Source of the DNA: a virus
Lineage: Duplodnaviria > Heunggongvirae > Uroviricota > Caudoviricetes
DNA length: 37,194 nucleotides
Direction: 5' to 3' (one strand)
Virus record (IMG/VR): IMGVR_UViG_2534682162_000005
The notes below the pieces were generated by a model that worked only from the letters and a program-made list of their open reading frames with translations, had not been told where the DNA came from and made no database searches. The position numbers and the translations under genes are program-made. This document shows, one piece after another, positions 3,849 through 10,336 of this stretch. How positions within the stretch are numbered: position 1 is the first letter of the stretch; every line of letters starts with the position of its first letter.

Positions 3849-4390
3849 GGTTCCACCTTCTCTATTTGCTTAAGACCGTCTCTCACTGCATTAAGTACGC
3901 GTTCCAGATACTGGTATTTCGGGTTTGGTGCCGTTGGCCAGTCGGCATACCACGGATCATCACCAAAGAGATTCAGCAGTTTGTTACCGACACCGAAACA
4001 ACAGCAGCTTTCTTTTACGTCATCGGCGTTTTCCGCCTCGTCCCACATTTCTCGAGCCTGTACCGCGTCGATTTCTCTCTCTCTTCGTAACTTTATGATT
4101 TCTGACTTCACGAAAAGCAGATTTGCATCGTTGTCATCGTCGACCGTGCTTCGCAGTTGAGGGTCGAAATAGCCGATTAGATACTCGTTGCTGACCCGCT
4201 TAATGAACGTCTGCACATCATCACCGCCCATAGCAAACCAAGCCGCAGTCCACGCTTTTCCGTAGCAGGTGATGGTGATTCTTCCCTTACCAGGTTCGTA
4301 GTTTTCAATCATCACTCGAACCGGATCTAGTCGCTCTGCACCGGTTATAACGAATGACAACACATCAATCTTTTCAACCGTTACACTCAC
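3845..4390 (-). CDS. Hypothetical early-left phage protein, 181 aa
   Basis: Track ORF, 4-nt start/stop overlaps with neighbours typical of a phage operon. Confidence 0.55.
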   Translation of the reverse strand: MSVTVEKIDVLSFVITGAERLDPVRVMIENYEPGKGRITITCYGKAWTAAWFAMGGDDVQTFIKRVSNEYLIGYFDPQLRSTVDDDNDANLLFVKSEIIKLRREREIDAVQAREMWDEAENADDVKESCCCFGVGNKLLNLFGDDPWYADWPTAPNPKYQYLERVLNAVRDGLKQIEKVEP

Positions 4391-6898: not shown

Positions 6899-7867
6899 TT
6901 AGTAGGTTATTTTTGTTGCGAATACTTCGCCTTTTACGATGGCTGTTATGATATTTTTAGCAACATCTTCTGATGCACCAACCTTGATAAGGTCAGCAAG
7001 TATTTTGTTATTTACTTCTTTCCGGTGAGCTTTATCCTTTGCTCTACGCTCTTCTTCGTCCTTGATTCTTTTTTCTTCTGCTATTCTGGCTTGCTCTTTT
7101 GCTTCAGCTTCGCGCCGGATTCGTTCAGCCTCCTCCTGTGCTTTTCGGCGTTCTGCTTCAATTGCCGCCTGCTTTTCTCTTTCAGCTCGTTCTGCTGCCT
7201 CTTTTGCTTCGCGCTGTGCTCGTTGCTCGGCTTCAATGCGTTCACGCTCTGCACGTTCCGCTGCTGCCTTAGCTTCTGCTTCTCGCCTTGCTGCTGCTTC
7301 AATTTCGGATTTTGCCTTTGCTTCGGCTTCTGCTCTGGCTTTCTCTTCAGCTTCTCTTTTTAAGCGTTCTTCATGCTCTCGCTTTTCCTGCTCTGCTTTG
7401 AGTCTTGCCTCTTCTCTTTTGCGGTCAAATTCGCGATCCATCAAAATCGCTATTTCATGGTCAGACTCAATTTGCTTTGCGAGAGCTTCAGCTGCTGCCT
7501 TAGCTTCTTCTTCGGCTTTAATCCGTGCCTGTTCCTCCTCATAATCAGTAAGAGGCTGGCGCGCCTTGGCTTTCAGTTCATCAAGGCGATCGCGCACTGT
7601 CTTGCGGTTGGCATCAATTAGCTTTGGAATTTCCTTCAGTTCAGCAACAAGGTCTTTGCCAAGACCATCGAGATATGTTTTCGTCTGCGCAACTTTATAC
7701 GCCAGAGAAGCGATCTCCTTTCTGCCCTTTGCCGTTGTGATATCAGGCACAAAGGACATAACTTCACGTTCAACCTTTTGAAGGATTTCTTCAATCTGGT
7801 CGGCAGACTTAAATACAGTCATTGCATTTGCTTTTTCAATAACAACTAAATCTGTTACTTCACTCAT
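6899..7867 (-). CDS. Coiled-coil protein with long charged E/A/K/R repeat region, about 322 aa
   Basis: Track ORF 6899..7921; start at Met 7867 (MSEVTDL) has GGAGG 4 nt upstream; central about 170 aa are EAKAAAE/REAEEKARAEAEAK-type repeats. Confidence 0.6.
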   Translation of the reverse strand: MSEVTDLVVIEKANAMTVFKSADQIEEILQKVEREVMSFVPDITTAKGRKEIASLAYKVAQTKTYLDGLGKDLVAELKEIPKLIDANRKTVRDRLDELKAKARQPLTDYEEEQARIKAEEEAKAAAEALAKQIESDHEIAILMDREFDRKREEARLKAEQEKREHEERLKREAEEKARAEAEAKAKSEIEAAARREAEAKAAAERAERERIEAEQRAQREAKEAAERAEREKQAAIEAERRKAQEEAERIRREAEAKEQARIAEEKRIKDEEERRAKDKAHRKEVNNKILADLIKVGASEDVAKNIITAIVKGEVFATKITY

Positions 7868-7879
7868 ATATCCTCCATC

Positions 7880-7906
7880 AAAAAAATTGCCCTCACACTG
7901 GAGGGC
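7880..7906 (-). terminator. Rho-independent terminator (tL-like) upstream of the coiled-coil gene
   Basis: Stem gccctc(7889-7894)/gagggc(7901-7906), loop acactg; A7 run 7880-7886 on plus strand gives a U-run on the minus strand. Confidence 0.45.
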
Positions 7907-8012
7907 AAAGAAGATTTCCAATAATCAGAACAAGTCGGCTCCTGTTTAGTTACGAGCGACATTGCTCCGTGTATTCACTCGTTGGAATGAATACACAGTG
8001 CTTATTCGCAGC

Positions 8013-8339
8013 CTACATAATCATTCCGGTTATTATTACCATTTCAACATCACTATCTTTCATAATGATTGGGGTTGAGTTATCAACTTTACTTTTACTC
8101 CATTTTCCTGCATCAGTTTTTACCGCTTCACAATAAGAAATCCAATCATCATCACAATGTTCTGGATCACTGATTCTGACAAGAACTCGTGATAGTGCTT
8201 TTTCGATACTTTCATCACAATTAGCATTTGTGTAATTTCCGTGAGACAATTTCAAATCGTTAACTTCATCTTCATTGGCATCAAAAATATAGATTTCAGT
8301 CGACTCTGGAACATTTTCATAAACCATTAAAACTTTCAT
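8013..8339 (-). CDS. Acidic hypothetical protein, about 108 aa, in AT-rich cassette
   Basis: Track ORF 8013..8459 appears to use a non-ATG start; first ATG at 8339 (MKVLMVYENVPE...). D/E-rich; very AT-rich coding sequence. Confidence 0.5.
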   Translation of the reverse strand: MKVLMVYENVPESTEIYIFDANEDEVNDLKLSHGNYTNANCDESIEKALSRVLVRISDPEHCDDDWISYCEAVKTDAGKWSKSKVDNSTPIIMKDSDVEMVIITGMIM

Positions 8340-8385
8340 TTTTACCCCATATTGTTTATGCCAAAAATAAAGTCGGCTATGCGCC

Positions 8386-8856
8386 CTAGTAGAATACCCA
8401 ATTTTCTGTTTCTTGGTTGTGTCCAAAGTTATATTCAATATCTGGTGTTGATGTATCAATATTCTTCATCCCATCAACAAGAGTTGATACAACAGCCAAA
8501 TCTTGTTTGATTCTCATTAAATGGTATTTCTTCCGGCGCAATAAACTCTCAATGGCAAGTTTCTTCGTTGGGAATGCAAAAGATCTTTCTGCATTTTTTG
8601 CTACTTTCTTAATTGCATATCTATTTCTCTTTTGTTTCCATTCCTGTAACCACTGATTTGGTGCTGGTTTAAAATTAACAATCCAATGCGCAGGAACCAA
8701 CCATGCATAATGCTCTGTCTGATGAAAAGCTATATATTGAAGTGCGAATATTTTGATTCCATCTTCTTCAACTGTCGCTTGGAATCTCCAGAAAACAGGC
8801 ATTCCATCATGTTCAGTTTCTGATTCAGGAAAAGGTACGCTCCATGATTTTGTCAT
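8386..8856 (-). CDS. Hypothetical protein, 156 aa, in AT-rich cassette immediately downstream of N
   Basis: Track ORF; GAGGTGA SD upstream of ATG at 8856; no TM segment or recognisable catalytic motif. Confidence 0.6.
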   Translation of the reverse strand: MTKSWSVPFPESETEHDGMPVFWRFQATVEEDGIKIFALQYIAFHQTEHYAWLVPAHWIVNFKPAPNQWLQEWKQKRNRYAIKKVAKNAERSFAFPTKKLAIESLLRRKKYHLMRIKQDLAVVSTLVDGMKNIDTSTPDIEYNFGHNQETENWVFY

Positions 8857-8864
8857 ATCTCACC

Positions 8865-9164
8865 TCAAATAAGTGGTTTGCTGCCTAATTTCATTTTCTG
8901 GCGACCAACACAAGTCACACCCATTTCACTGCGTGGCTTGCGGTAGTAAATACGATTCTGTTTACGCTCGACTTCTTCTGCCTTCTTGCAGCGAAGGCTT
9001 CCGAGTGATGCTGCTTTATCTGCTCTGACGCAACCAGAGAGCTTTAGCGCAATTTTTCGCGCCAGTCGCTGCTCTTGCATTGCCTGTTCACGTTGAGCCT
9101 GTCTGCGTGCTCTGCGGCGATTTCTGGCGTTATCGTCAGCCAGATATGTAATGACTACTGTCAT
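8865..9164 (-). CDS. N: N-like transcription antiterminator (P22 gene 24-like), 99 aa
   Basis: Track ORF; N-terminus MTVVITYLADDNARNRRRARRQAQREQ is an arginine-rich motif resembling P22 gp24; GGAGG SD; first gene downstream of PL/nutL. Confidence 0.75.
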   Translation of the reverse strand: MTVVITYLADDNARNRRRARRQAQREQAMQEQRLARKIALKLSGCVRADKAASLGSLRCKKAEEVERKQNRIYYRKPRSEMGVTCVGRQKMKLGSKPLI

Positions 9165-9478
9165 GTTGACCTCCGATGAAACAACTTTGGAATTTTTTTT
9201 ATTACAAAGTTGTTTCCTTCCCCGCCAATTAGACGGGGATGGAAGAGCATTTATGAGCCTTCATGGACTCTGCTCGATCAGTTCTATTTAATTAATCTCT
9301 CAACTGAATGTAAGTATTCACATAAATCCTCCTACCTCTTGTGCAGCTTTCTTGAATATGGTGGCGGCTGCATAACGCCTATGGAATTGACTTTGGCGGT
9401 GACGCGCCGGGTGCTTATCTTCCGGTTGCCGTCGTGCAGCTGCACTTCACGTCACCCCAAAGCCAACTACTCTTTGGT

Positions 9479-9519: not shown

Positions 9520-9566
9520 CTGCCAACCTGTTCCGTTTGGCTACCAGCGTCCTGCTGATGGCTTAA

Positions 9567-9649
9567 ATTTAAGATCTCTTTAATTAATGGTCAAGAGTAT
9601 TTTTGAAGAAAACTTAAATTTTCTTTCGTAACTTAAGTTTGGCTTTGAT
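9567..9649 (-). promoter_or_regulatory. OL operators (three about 18-bp sites of ATTTAAG..CTTTAAT type) with leftward promoter PL
   Basis: Sites at about 9567-9584, 9612-9629, 9631-9649; minus-strand TTGACC (9590-9595) with 17-nt spacer then TAAATT (9567-9572). Confidence 0.6.
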
Positions 9650-9662
9650 TTTTAAAGGAAAT

Positions 9663-9684
9663 AAAAAAAAGGGGCGAACGCCCC
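9663..9684 (-). terminator. Rho-independent terminator ending the cI (PRM) transcript
   Basis: Stem ggggc/gcccc at 9671-9684 overlapping the cI stop; A8 run 9663-9670 on plus strand gives U8 on the minus strand. Confidence 0.6.
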
Positions 9685-9685
9685 C

Positions 9686-10336
9686 TTATGGAAGGTTTGC
9701 TAGTTTTGCATCGACAACTACGCCGATGATTTTGCAGTTTCCGTTGATCTCGATCATCGGATATTGTGGGTTAAGTGGTTTTAGAAACTTCCTGCCTGCA
9801 TCAATAACTAACTTCTTGAAAGTTGCCTCGTTTTCTCCTTCGAGCTTTGCAACTACCAGTTTCCCGTTACGCGGCTCTACTTCAGGATCGACGAGTATTA
9901 TCATTCCTTCAGGGATACTGAGACCGGCCGGAGCCGTCATTGAGTCTCCCTTCACGTCCAACCAAAACGAATCTTCTGAACAGTCTACGGTTGTATCGTA
10001 CCAGTTATCTATTGCACGCTTATGATATGGTTCTACAGCTTCCATCCAGCATCCTGCGCTCACCCAGCTAATCAGAGGGTATGACCCTCTTGGATCATGC
10101 CTACTGTGATAGGCAATGTTTGAAAGACTTTCCTCTCCTTTCATCAGATAGTCAGGGGAACACTTCAACGCATTAGCCAGGGCGAGAAGATTCTCTCCAT
10201 TTGGCTCTGTCTCAGAGCGTTCCCACTGAGATATGGCAACATTAGACACGCCGACCATCTTTCCAAGTGCGGCCTGCCTGATCTTGAGTTCTTTTCTCCG
10301 AGCGCGAATGCGCTCTCCCATCAATTGAGTTTTCAT
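9686..10336 (-). CDS. cI: Prophage repressor, P22 c2-type (HTH plus S24 LexA-like autopeptidase), 216 aa
   Basis: Track ORF; MKTQLMGERIRARRKELKIRQAALGKMVGVSNVAISQWE... and C-terminal ...GDSMTAPAGLSIPEGMIILVDPE... match P22 C2 as I recall it. Confidence 0.95.
   Translation of the reverse strand: MKTQLMGERIRARRKELKIRQAALGKMVGVSNVAISQWERSETEPNGENLLALANALKCSPDYLMKGEESLSNIAYHSRHDPRGSYPLISWVSAGCWMEAVEPYHKRAIDNWYDTTVDCSEDSFWLDVKGDSMTAPAGLSIPEGMIILVDPEVEPRNGKLVVAKLEGENEATFKKLVIDAGRKFLKPLNPQYPMIEINGNCKIIGVVVDAKLANLP

What the first reader, a model, noticed from the sequence alone, without database searches (positions are those of the whole stretch)
8013..8856. AT-rich two-gene cassette directly downstream of N: candidate exclusion or anti-restriction moron
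Two adjacent minus-strand genes (156 aa and about 108 aa, the second strongly acidic) sit between the N-like antiterminator and a rho-independent terminator (7880-7906). Composition drops sharply at the N stop: I count 18 G+C in the 60-nt line 8041-8100 (about 30%) against roughly 50% in the flanking N and structural genes. This is the slot that holds ral/sieB in lambda and other exclusion genes in relatives. Neither protein resembles anything I recognise; the 156-aa protein has no TM segment, so it is not SieB-like.
Basis: partly seen in the sequence, partly recalled or inferred. Interest (0 to 1): 0.75.

Follow-up and report, generated by a model that had tools for sequence, protein, structure and literature searches.

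The report
Two independent early-operon phage accessory genes
Just downstream of this phage's N antiterminator lie two real, AT-rich genes of unknown function. They are separate mobile modules in a known hypervariable accessory slot, the one that holds the anti-restriction gene ral in relatives. One is common and ordinary. The other is a rare small acidic protein whose confidently predicted fold matches no solved structure, which makes it a reasonable but unproven counter-defence candidate.

Summary
Two minus-strand genes (156 aa at 8386-8856; 108 aa, pI 4.3, at 8013-8339) lie between an N-like gene and an intrinsic terminator. At 35.0% GC they form the most AT-rich 844-bp stretch of the 37-kb window.

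They are not a cassette. The 156-aa gene (phrog_1636; 100% identical to an unannotated H-19B ORF, 99% to a 933W ORF, 98.7% to HK97 gp45) occurs in about 11% of complete E. coli genomes. It is one of at least eight alternative genes, including Ral and Nmad5, found upstream of the 108-aa gene in related prophages.

Neither protein matches Pfam, NCBIfam, PADLOC, Ral, Ocr or Arn. No promoter other than pL was found, so both are probably N-dependent delayed-early lytic genes.

Counter-defence is the best guess for the 108-aa protein, and prophage exclusion is less likely. Function remains untested.

The parts
9566..9594 (-). pL-like sigma-70 promoter (TTGACC, 17-nt spacer, TAAATT). It is the only promoter-like site upstream of the two genes.
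   Evidence: Consensus scan. It lies downstream of the cI-like gene (9686-10336) and its terminator (9668-9687). Not tested experimentally.
9178..9249 (-). nutL-like region: boxA-like TGCTCTTCC (9241-9249), a boxB-like hairpin (about 9218-9238) and a 12-bp leader hairpin (9178-9216) ahead of the N ribosome-binding site.
   Evidence: Read from the sequence. RNA fold of 9160-9262 gives MFE -36.2 kcal/mol, z -5.9. The nut assignment is by analogy with lambda and H-19B, from my own knowledge.
8865..9164 (-). N-like antiterminator, 99 aa, with an arginine-rich N-terminus.
   Evidence: phrog_271 E 4.8e-37. Pfam N_peptide E 8e-4, below cut-off.
8386..8856 (-). Gene A156: a 156-aa basic early protein (phrog_1636), the same protein as the H-19B ORF downstream of N, 933W ST933Wp19 and HK97 gp45. 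Function unknown.
8340..8385 (-). Junction and leader of the 108-aa gene: a degenerate hairpin, then TTTATTTTT, then the conserved leader GGCATAAACAATATGGGGTAAAA with the ribosome-binding site.
   Evidence: Alignments A6 and A8. The hairpin is intact and terminator-like in L001 and L002 and weak in the window.
8013..8339 (-). Gene B108: a 108-aa acidic soluble protein (phrog_4658). Relative to 933W and PA28 it is a single-gene insertion.
   Evidence: AlphaFold pLDDT 95.5. No PDB fold match. Only uncharacterised phage proteins matched in BFVD.
7875..8012 (-). Conserved structured 3' region: three hairpins, the last being the intrinsic terminator (stem 7887-7908, T-run 7880-7886).
   Evidence: MFE -50.1 kcal/mol, z -5.2. 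Terminator scan. At least 98% identical in PA28, 933W, L001 and L002 whatever gene lies upstream. No Rfam family.
6899..7867 (-). Next gene: a 322-aa E/K/A/R-rich coiled-coil protein annotated 'TolA' in relatives (phrog_1376). It is a neighbour, not part of the insertion.
   Evidence: The same gene follows B108 in L020, L021, L022 and L038.

Best explanation
SHOWN. The window is the early-left (pL) operon of a P22-like lambdoid phage. Its order is cI, terminator, pL, nutL-like hairpins, N, A156, B108, a three-hairpin terminator region, a coiled-coil gene, and onward.

A156 and B108 are two independent, horizontally exchanged single-gene modules in the hypervariable N-to-cIII accessory region. 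A156 is one of at least eight alternative genes found upstream of B108. The others are Ral, Nmad5, phrog_3054, phrog_16670, an 81-aa protein, a 210-aa Cys-rich protein and a 67-aa protein. B108 with its leader is a roughly 375-bp insertion between the stop codon of the upstream gene and a conserved structured terminator region.

INFERRED. No promoter other than pL was detected, and terminator-like hairpins flank B108. Both genes are therefore probably transcribed only by N-antiterminated read-through, as delayed-early lytic genes that are silent in the lysogen.

B108 is small, soluble and consistently acidic, and has a compact, confidently predicted alpha/beta fold. A conserved cluster of residues (P11-E12, H33, Y36, N38, G105) may form a binding site. 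It most likely acts as a stoichiometric binder or inhibitor of a host protein or small molecule during early infection. The best single guess is a counter-defence (anti-restriction-like) role.

A156 has a basic helical C-terminal half and an aromatic-rich beta-sheet N-terminal half. It is most likely a nucleic-acid- or protein-binding early accessory factor of the same general class.
For: Architecture and independence:
- 933W and PA28 run from the A156 stop codon straight into the structured region, so B108 is an insertion relative to them.
- 614 of 5426 E. coli genomes match part of the cassette, but none covers 80% of it. 16 carry B108.
- Eight different upstream neighbours of B108 were found.

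Accessory-region status:
- Ral is directly adjacent in five loci.
- The 'Ral' accessory region ranks second in Silas et al..

Early lytic role:
- The only promoter-like site upstream is pL.
- Terminator-like hairpins flank B108.
- B108 homologues lie in early regions of virulent phages. In RB16 and Mm5 they sit between ndd and the holin gene, where T4 carries arn and stp. In L017 and L018 they sit two genes from Mom. In FBKp34 and L016 they sit beside a TerF/TerD cluster. In a Burkholderia phage-like replicon the homologue is in the early-left operon.

Protein properties:
- The B family has median net charge -11 and pI 4.4. Invariant residues are H33, N38 and G105.
- AlphaFold pLDDT is 95.5.
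- dN/dS is 0.08-0.31.
- The A family is consistently basic, with median pI 9.0.
Against: - The B profile shows no similarity to Arn, Arn.2, Ocr or Ral.
- B108's charge density (-12 over 108 aa) appears lower than that of classic DNA mimics. That comparison is from my own recall and was not computed here.
- B108 is absent from conjugative plasmids, where many anti-restriction genes live.
- Neither family was among the 200 accessory genes screened by Silas et al., so there are no phenotype data.
- The promoter scan is a crude consensus search and cannot exclude a weak internal promoter of the kind I recall being reported for lambda sieB.
- The A156 model is low-confidence (pLDDT 65), so its domain description is tentative.
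Confidence: 0.5

Rival explanations
1. Prophage-encoded superinfection exclusion or defence. One or both proteins would be made in the lysogen and block incoming phages, as I recall lambda SieB and RexAB doing, or as the genes annotated as P22 gp17-like exclusion proteins here might do.
For: - The slot holds exclusion-annotated genes in relatives. A gp17-like 'superinfection exclusion protein' lies directly downstream of B108 in L001, L023, L024 and L027, and downstream of A156 in PA28 and H-19B.
- The composition is AT-rich and the unit is bounded by a terminator, which is moron-like.
Against: - No promoter was detected apart from pL, which is repressed in lysogens.
- Neither protein has a TM segment.
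- There are no PADLOC hits for either protein or across the B family.
- The B family is present in obligately virulent T4-like, jedunavirus-like and phi92-like phages.
- The A family occurs at varied early positions in other phages.
Confidence: 0.12
2. Host-takeover or regulatory early functions unrelated to immunity. Examples would be modulation of host transcription, replication, recombination or division, like the neighbouring kil, cIII and recombination genes. A156 would act as a DNA- or RNA-binding regulator and B108 as an inhibitor of a housekeeping host protein.
For: - A156 is basic with a long predicted helix and a conserved K/R-rich segment.
- Both genes sit in the operon that also carries cIII, kil and the recombination genes in relatives.
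- A family members occur next to RecE, DNA-binding proteins or xis/int in other phages.
- In T4-like phages the B homologue lies near ndd, the nucleoid-disruption gene.
Against: - The sporadic distribution (0.3% of E. coli genomes for B108) and the allelic replacement by Ral and Nmad5 are more typical of arms-race genes than of core takeover functions.
- No similarity to any known regulator family was found.
Confidence: 0.25
3. A156 and B108 form an interacting pair: a basic protein with an acidic partner, for example toxin/antitoxin-like or an effector with its chaperone. That would make them a true two-gene cassette.
For: - The two proteins have opposite net charges.
- They are adjacent in the window and in two IMG/VR loci, L029 and L034.
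Against: - A156 occurs without B108 in about 600 E. coli genomes and in 83 phage records.
- B108 occurs with seven other upstream neighbours.
- A terminator-like element separates the two modules in relatives.
- Distant homologues of each family never have the other as a neighbour in the loci examined.
Confidence: 0.03

Closest known systems
The ORF downstream of N in H-19B, 933W ST933Wp19 (NP_049479) and HK97 gp45 (PHROG phrog_1636)
   Same: A156 is this protein: 100%, 99.4% and 98.7% identical over the full length, and in the same position after N.
   Different: Nothing differs structurally. The family has no assigned function, and the H-19B record does not even annotate the ORF.
PHROG phrog_4658: RB16p265, Klebsiella phage RCIP0047_00048, FBKp34 gp130 and Morganella phage Mm5_130
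   Same: B108 matches the profile over its full length (E 7.6e-37). It shares the family's length, acidity, and conserved motifs PE, HGxYxN and TGF.
   Different: It is only 25-39% identical to these members, and it sits in a temperate lambdoid pL operon rather than in a virulent myovirus. No family member has a known function.
Lambda Ral (Pfam PF11058) and the 'Ral' accessory region of Silas et al. 2023
   Same: It occupies the same genomic slot. Ral is an alternative occupant of the A156 position and a direct neighbour of B108 in five loci. Expression from pL is early.
   Different: There is no sequence or profile similarity: hhalign probability is below 1% for both families. Ral's mechanism, enhancement of type I methylation, cannot be transferred.
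DNA-mimic anti-restriction proteins: T7 Ocr, T4 Arn and ArdA
   Same: B108 is likewise small, acidic (pI 4.3), soluble and early-expressed. In T4-like phages its homologue occupies the ndd-to-holin region, where T4 carries arn.
Lambda SieB and P22 gp17-type genes annotated as exclusion proteins
   Same: They lie in the same operon segment and are direct neighbours in relatives.
   Different: They are not homologous to either protein here. Neither A156 nor B108 has a TM segment, and no lysogen promoter was found.
Morons as defined for HK97 and HK022 (Juhala et al. 2000, recalled from memory)
   Same: B108 is a single extra gene of deviant composition, inserted between two genes that are adjacent in relatives and followed by a terminator.
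   Different: No promoter of its own was detected. It appears to depend on the operon's read-through.

Membership tests
PHROG phrog_1636 (H-19B / 933W / HK97 gp45 family) | Full-length match to the family profile | tested here: met
   A156 matches at E 5.4e-112 over residues 1-156 of 156. It is 98.7-100% identical to the HK97, 933W and H-19B proteins.
PHROG phrog_4658 | Full-length match to the family profile | tested here: met
   B108 matches at E 7.6e-37 over residues 1-108 against profile positions 2-109 of 109. The 41-sequence family alignment has invariant H33, N38 and G105.
Ral antirestriction family (Pfam PF11058) | Sequence or profile similarity to Ral | tested here: not met
   No Pfam hit for either protein. 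hhalign of the A2 and A5 profiles against Ral gives probabilities of 0.7% and 0.1%.
Ral antirestriction family (Pfam PF11058) | Alleviation of type I restriction or enhancement of modification | not testable with these tools
   Needs plating of unmodified phage on EcoKI-type hosts with the gene expressed.
DNA-mimic anti-restriction proteins (Ocr / Arn / ArdA) | Strongly acidic surface | tested here: inconclusive
   B108 has pI 4.32 and net charge -12 over 108 aa. The family median is -11. It is acidic, but apparently less so than the classic mimics. The surface charge pattern could not be examined.
DNA-mimic anti-restriction proteins (Ocr / Arn / ArdA) | Fold or sequence relationship to a known mimic | tested here: not met
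SieB-like or membrane superinfection-exclusion proteins | Membrane-spanning segment(s) | tested here: not met
   The maximum Kyte-Doolittle value over a 19-residue window is 0.56 for A156 and 1.08 for B108.
SieB-like or membrane superinfection-exclusion proteins | Expression in the lysogen from its own promoter | tested here: inconclusive
   The consensus scan finds no promoter upstream of either gene except pL. The scan is crude and weak promoters would be missed.
Known anti-phage defence systems (PADLOC-DB 2.0) | Match to any defence-protein model | tested here: not met
   A156 gives only Cas1_II at E 0.0097 and 13 bits, which is at chance level. B108 gives no match. Across the 41 members of the B family there are only single-member chance hits.
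Moron (extra gene with its own promoter and terminator) | Insertion between genes that are adjacent in relatives, with deviant composition | tested here: met
   933W and PA28 lack B108 precisely. B108 is 32.7% GC against a 47.6% window mean.
Moron (extra gene with its own promoter and terminator) | Own promoter and own terminator | tested here: inconclusive
   A terminator lies downstream, but it belongs to the backbone, since it is present in 933W and PA28 without B108. No promoter was detected.
Phage accessory region (variable genes between conserved flanks; Silas et al. 2023) | Many alternative unrelated genes at one position between conserved neighbours | tested here: met
   At least eight different genes lie between N and B108, and four different genes lie downstream of B108, across about 24 loci.
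   None of 5426 E. coli genomes and none of 50,697 phage records carries both genes contiguously. Only 2 of 16 IMG/VR loci with B108 have A156 upstream.

The most novel reading that the evidence does not exclude
B108 (phrog_4658) would be the founding characterised member of a new-fold family of phage counter-defence proteins. The family is shared by temperate lambdoid phages and by virulent T4-like, jedunavirus-like and phi92-like phages. Through its conserved pocket (PE, HGxYxN, TGF) the protein would neutralise a widespread enterobacterial immune component, either a nucleic-acid-targeting nuclease or an immune signalling molecule. The A156 position downstream of N would then be a multi-allele anti-defence slot in which A156, phrog_3054, phrog_16670 and the Cys-rich 210-aa protein are further unrecognised inhibitors.
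Probability: 0.3. Interest if true: 0.6.

Novelty: new member of a known kind. Interest (0 to 1): 0.35.

Why it matters
If B108 is a counter-defence protein, it would add a structurally new inhibitor family found in both temperate and virulent phages of Enterobacteria. That would be useful for finding its target defence system and for engineering therapeutic phages.

The finding also maps the N-to-cIII slot, which holds at least eight mutually exclusive alleles including Ral. That gives a compact, testable list of candidate anti-defence genes, none of which was in the published 200-gene accessory-gene screen.

As it stands, the finding is a well-documented pair of uncharacterised accessory genes, not a discovery of function.

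Tried and rejected
1. Family assignment. Pfam, NCBIfam, PADLOC and PDB sequence searches with single sequences and with profiles all returned nothing significant. The DUF7294 hit to B108 (E 0.017) is seen in only 1 of 41 family members, so I treat it as chance.

3. Possible relationships to known proteins, all rejected:
- A156 to Nmad5, the allele in the same slot: no BLASTP alignment.
- B108 to T4 Arn, T4 Arn.2, T7 Ocr or Ral: hhalign probability below 1%.
- A156 to B108: no similarity.
- A T4 homologue in the rIIB-to-holin region: none.

4. Literature. Nothing was found on HK97 gp45, 933W p19, the PHROG ids or the WP accessions. The Nmad5 paper concerns escape from the Tmn defence and says nothing about these genes. 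orf184 of Silas et al., from the same accessory region as ral, begins MEALVVERSEDGYWT and is neither protein. Peptide and motif searches of their 200-gene list were negative.

5. The 3' structured region is not a known RNA family in Rfam.

6. The exact A156-B108 junction string was not found in IMG/VR or in GTDB representative genomes. Two IMG/VR loci do carry the same gene order with slightly different junctions.

7. A plasmid leading-region association was rejected. B108 occurs in only one record, a phage-like Burkholderia replicon.

Full report
**Observation**

- On the minus strand an N-like gene (8865-9164; phrog_271, E 4.8e-37) is followed by a 156-aa ORF (8386-8856, here A156) and a 108-aa ORF (8013-8339, here B108).
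- An intrinsic terminator follows (stem 7908-7887, T-run to 7880).
- The 60-nt line 8041-8100 holds exactly 18 G+C.
- The stretch 8013-8856 is 35.0% GC against a window mean of 47.7% (sd 3.5). It is effectively the most AT-rich 844-bp stretch of the 37 kb.
- B108 is acidic (pI 4.32, net charge -12) and A156 is basic (pI 9.05).
- Neither has a membrane-spanning segment.
- Both are real genes. dN/dS against homologues is 0.03-0.31. Both families are conserved in length and motifs. B108 folds with pLDDT 95.5.
- The 148-aa TTG-start ORF listed mechanically for B108 is an upstream extension that overlaps A156. The conserved start is ATG 8339, preceded by GGGG.

**Context**

The window is a P22-like lambdoid phage. 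Its best overall matches are IME10 and HK633. The local order is:
- a cI-like repressor (9686-10336) and its terminator;
- a pL-like promoter (9594-9566);
- a strongly structured nutL-like and leader region (9178-9249; z -5.9);
- N, A156 and B108;
- a three-hairpin region ending in the terminator (7875-8012; MFE -50.1 kcal/mol, z -5.2);
- a 322-aa coiled-coil gene.

**The two genes are not a cassette**

A156 is a common backbone gene.
- It is 100% identical to an ORF downstream of N in H-19B, which that GenBank record leaves unannotated.
- It is 99.4% identical to 933W ST933Wp19 and 98.7% to HK97 gp45.
- 83 phage records carry it.
- About 600 of 5426 complete E. coli genomes carry it (614 match part of the cassette, 16 of them carrying B108).

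B108 is rare.
- It has no close homologue in 50,697 phage records. The best match is 35.5% identical.
- It is present in only 16 of 5426 E. coli genomes.
- No complete E. coli genome and no phage record carries the two genes contiguously.

B108 is an insertion relative to 933W and PA28.
- In both phages the A156 stop codon is followed immediately by the structured region CGAATAAGCACTGTG.... In the window, about 375 bp (leader plus B108) are interposed.
- The same B108 unit and 3' region, more than 97% identical, occurs in other prophages behind completely different genes.

About 24 loci were examined one by one.

| Position | Gene | Loci |
|---|---|---|
| Immediately upstream of B108 | Ral | 5 |
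| | phrog_3054 protein | 7 |
| | Nmad5-family protein | 2, plus 3 by annotation |
| | A156 | the window plus IMG/VR L029 and L034 |
| | phrog_16670 protein | 1 |
| | 81-aa protein | 2 |
| | 210-aa Cys-rich protein | 1 |
| | 67-aa protein | 1 |
| Downstream of B108 | coiled-coil gene, P22 gp17-like 'superinfection exclusion' gene, DUF2528/Ea10 gene, or cIII directly | varies |

This is a textbook hypervariable accessory region. Silas et al. rank a 'Ral' accessory region second among roughly 2000 such regions in enterobacteriophages (10.1101/2023.04.06.535777).

**What the proteins are**

No library gives either protein a function.
- Pfam, NCBIfam, PADLOC and PDB sequence searches, with single sequences and with family profiles, are negative.
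- Both belong to PHROG families of unknown function: phrog_1636 for A156 and phrog_4658 for B108.

B108:
- The model is a beta-hairpin at 2-20, helices at 23-32, 43-56 and 64-69, and a C-terminal strand at 100-107.
- The family is uniformly acidic, with median net charge -11.
- H33, N38 and G105 are invariant. L4, P11, E12 and Y36 are nearly invariant.
- That pattern suggests a specific binding site rather than a generic DNA-mimic surface.
- Profile comparisons with T4 Arn, T4 Arn.2, T7 Ocr and Ral are null.

A156:
- The family extends to 88 clusters of proteins about 135-160 aa long, all unannotated.
- It is consistently basic.
- It has an aromatic-rich N-terminal sheet and a conserved K/R-rich strand-helix segment followed by a long helix.
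- Distant A-family members sit at various early positions: next to RecE in a Vibrio phage, first in an early operon in Salmonella phage NX263, and upstream of xis/int in a Pectobacterium prophage.

**Where B108 relatives live**

- In T4-like phages (RB16, Mm5) the homologue lies in the early accessory stretch between ndd and the holin gene. That is the stretch where T4 carries arn and stp.
- In jedunavirus-like contigs it lies two genes upstream of a Mom homologue (Pfam E 6e-33).
- In phi92-like phages it lies directly upstream of a vWA-TerF / TerD / TelA / TerC cluster.
- In a phage-like Burkholderia replicon it lies in the early-left operon upstream of ERF.
- It is otherwise absent from 72,556 plasmids.

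**Mechanistic reading**

Shown:
- The modular architecture, the insertion and the accessory-region status.
- Purifying selection on both genes.
- Solubility and charge of both proteins.
- The confident predicted fold of B108 with no PDB match.

Inferred:
- No promoter-like site other than pL precedes the genes, and terminator-like hairpins bracket B108. Both are therefore probably expressed by N-antiterminated read-through early in lytic growth, not in the lysogen.
- The B family's presence in obligately virulent phages supports this. Together these points favour an early lytic accessory role over prophage-encoded exclusion.
- Within the early lytic role, repeated adjacency to Ral, Nmad5 and Mom and the sporadic, horizontally exchanged distribution favour counter-defence for B108.
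- My rough estimates for B108 are 35-40% for counter-defence proper and about 25% for a host-takeover function unrelated to immunity.
- An A156-B108 complex is very unlikely, given their independent distributions.

**Comparison with the known, and verdict**

- A156 is an already catalogued, widespread hypothetical protein.
- B108 is a new allele of a catalogued but uncharacterised family. It differs at three residues from the copies in the seven related prophage and contig loci translated (the six close copies are 96-97% identical to it).
- The kind of feature, accessory genes in the Ral region of the pL operon, is known.
- Neither family was among the 200 accessory genes screened by Silas et al., and their orf184 from the Ral region is a different protein.
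The slot and the moron-like insertion are right. The 'cassette' framing and the novelty of the 156-aa protein are not. The functional claim remains untested.
- Interest is moderate to low. B108 is the one element worth an experiment.

Noticed in passing
window 7875-8012 (-): A 138-nt three-hairpin region ending in the terminator (MFE -50.1 kcal/mol, z -5.2). It is at least 98% conserved in 933W, PA28 and E. coli prophages whatever gene precedes it. It behaves as a fixed junction sequence of the accessory region and has no Rfam family. It could be a processing or stability element or a recombination linker.
   Followed up: partly
window 9178-9249 (-): Upstream of N there is a boxA-like TGCTCTTCC, a boxB-like hairpin (CCCCGUCU...GGCGGGG) and a 12-bp leader hairpin just before the N ribosome-binding site (fold z -5.9). 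From memory, this resembles the lambda nutL and RNase III-sensitive N leader arrangement.
   Followed up: partly
window 6899-7867 (-): A 322-aa protein with a long E/K/A/R-rich coiled coil (phrog_1376; annotated 'TolA' or 'coiled-coil domain-containing' in relatives). It has no Pfam hit. It is the recurrent downstream neighbour of B108 (L020, L021, L022, L038). Function unknown.
   Followed up: partly
L041 (H-19B AF034975) 1701-2168: The H-19B GenBank record leaves the 156-aa ORF between N and gp17 unannotated, although it is 100% identical to the window protein and conserved in 83 phage records.
   Followed up: yes
L038 2323-2955; L028 2715-2960; L019 1889-2203; L020 1904-2269; L022 1904-2326: Further mutually exclusive occupants of the position between N and B108: a 210-aa Cys-rich protein with many CxxC pairs (probably zinc-binding), an 81-aa protein, a phrog_16670 protein and phrog_3054 variants. 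All are uncharacterised. Together they form a ready candidate list for anti-defence screening.
   Followed up: partly
L017 264-1544; L018 810-2090: In jedunavirus-like contigs the B108 homologue is followed by a 52-aa ORF and then a Mom-family protein (Pfam PF25680, E 6e-33). From memory, this resembles the com-mom anti-restriction module of Mu.
   Followed up: partly
L006 3001-5359; L016 5877-7648: In phi92-like (Stephanstirmvirinae) phages the B108 homologue sits directly upstream of vWA-TerF-like and TerD genes. These lie within a phage-borne TerC / TelA / TerD / PRTase cluster.
   Followed up: no
window 8013-8339 (-), residues 67, 71, 98: The window's B108 carries I67, E71 and V98. All seven other copies translated (six E. 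coli prophage copies and the more divergent L008 homologue) carry L67, G71 and I98. The window therefore holds a distinct allele.
   Followed up: partly
L042 (Burkholderia gladioli NZ_CP104216) 4001-4327: The only 'plasmid' hit for B108 is a 41.6-kb non-mobilizable replicon that looks like a temperate phage (YdaU, ERF, HNH genes). The homologue (33.6% identity) is again in the early-left operon. This extends the family beyond Enterobacterales.
   Followed up: partly
window 8340-8385 (-) compared with L001 4351-4411 and L002 4351-4411: The hairpin plus T-run that precedes the B108 leader is a good terminator in the Ral and Nmad5 contexts. It is degenerate in the window and in L029, where A156 lies upstream. 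Read-through into B108 may therefore depend less on N here.
   Followed up: partly
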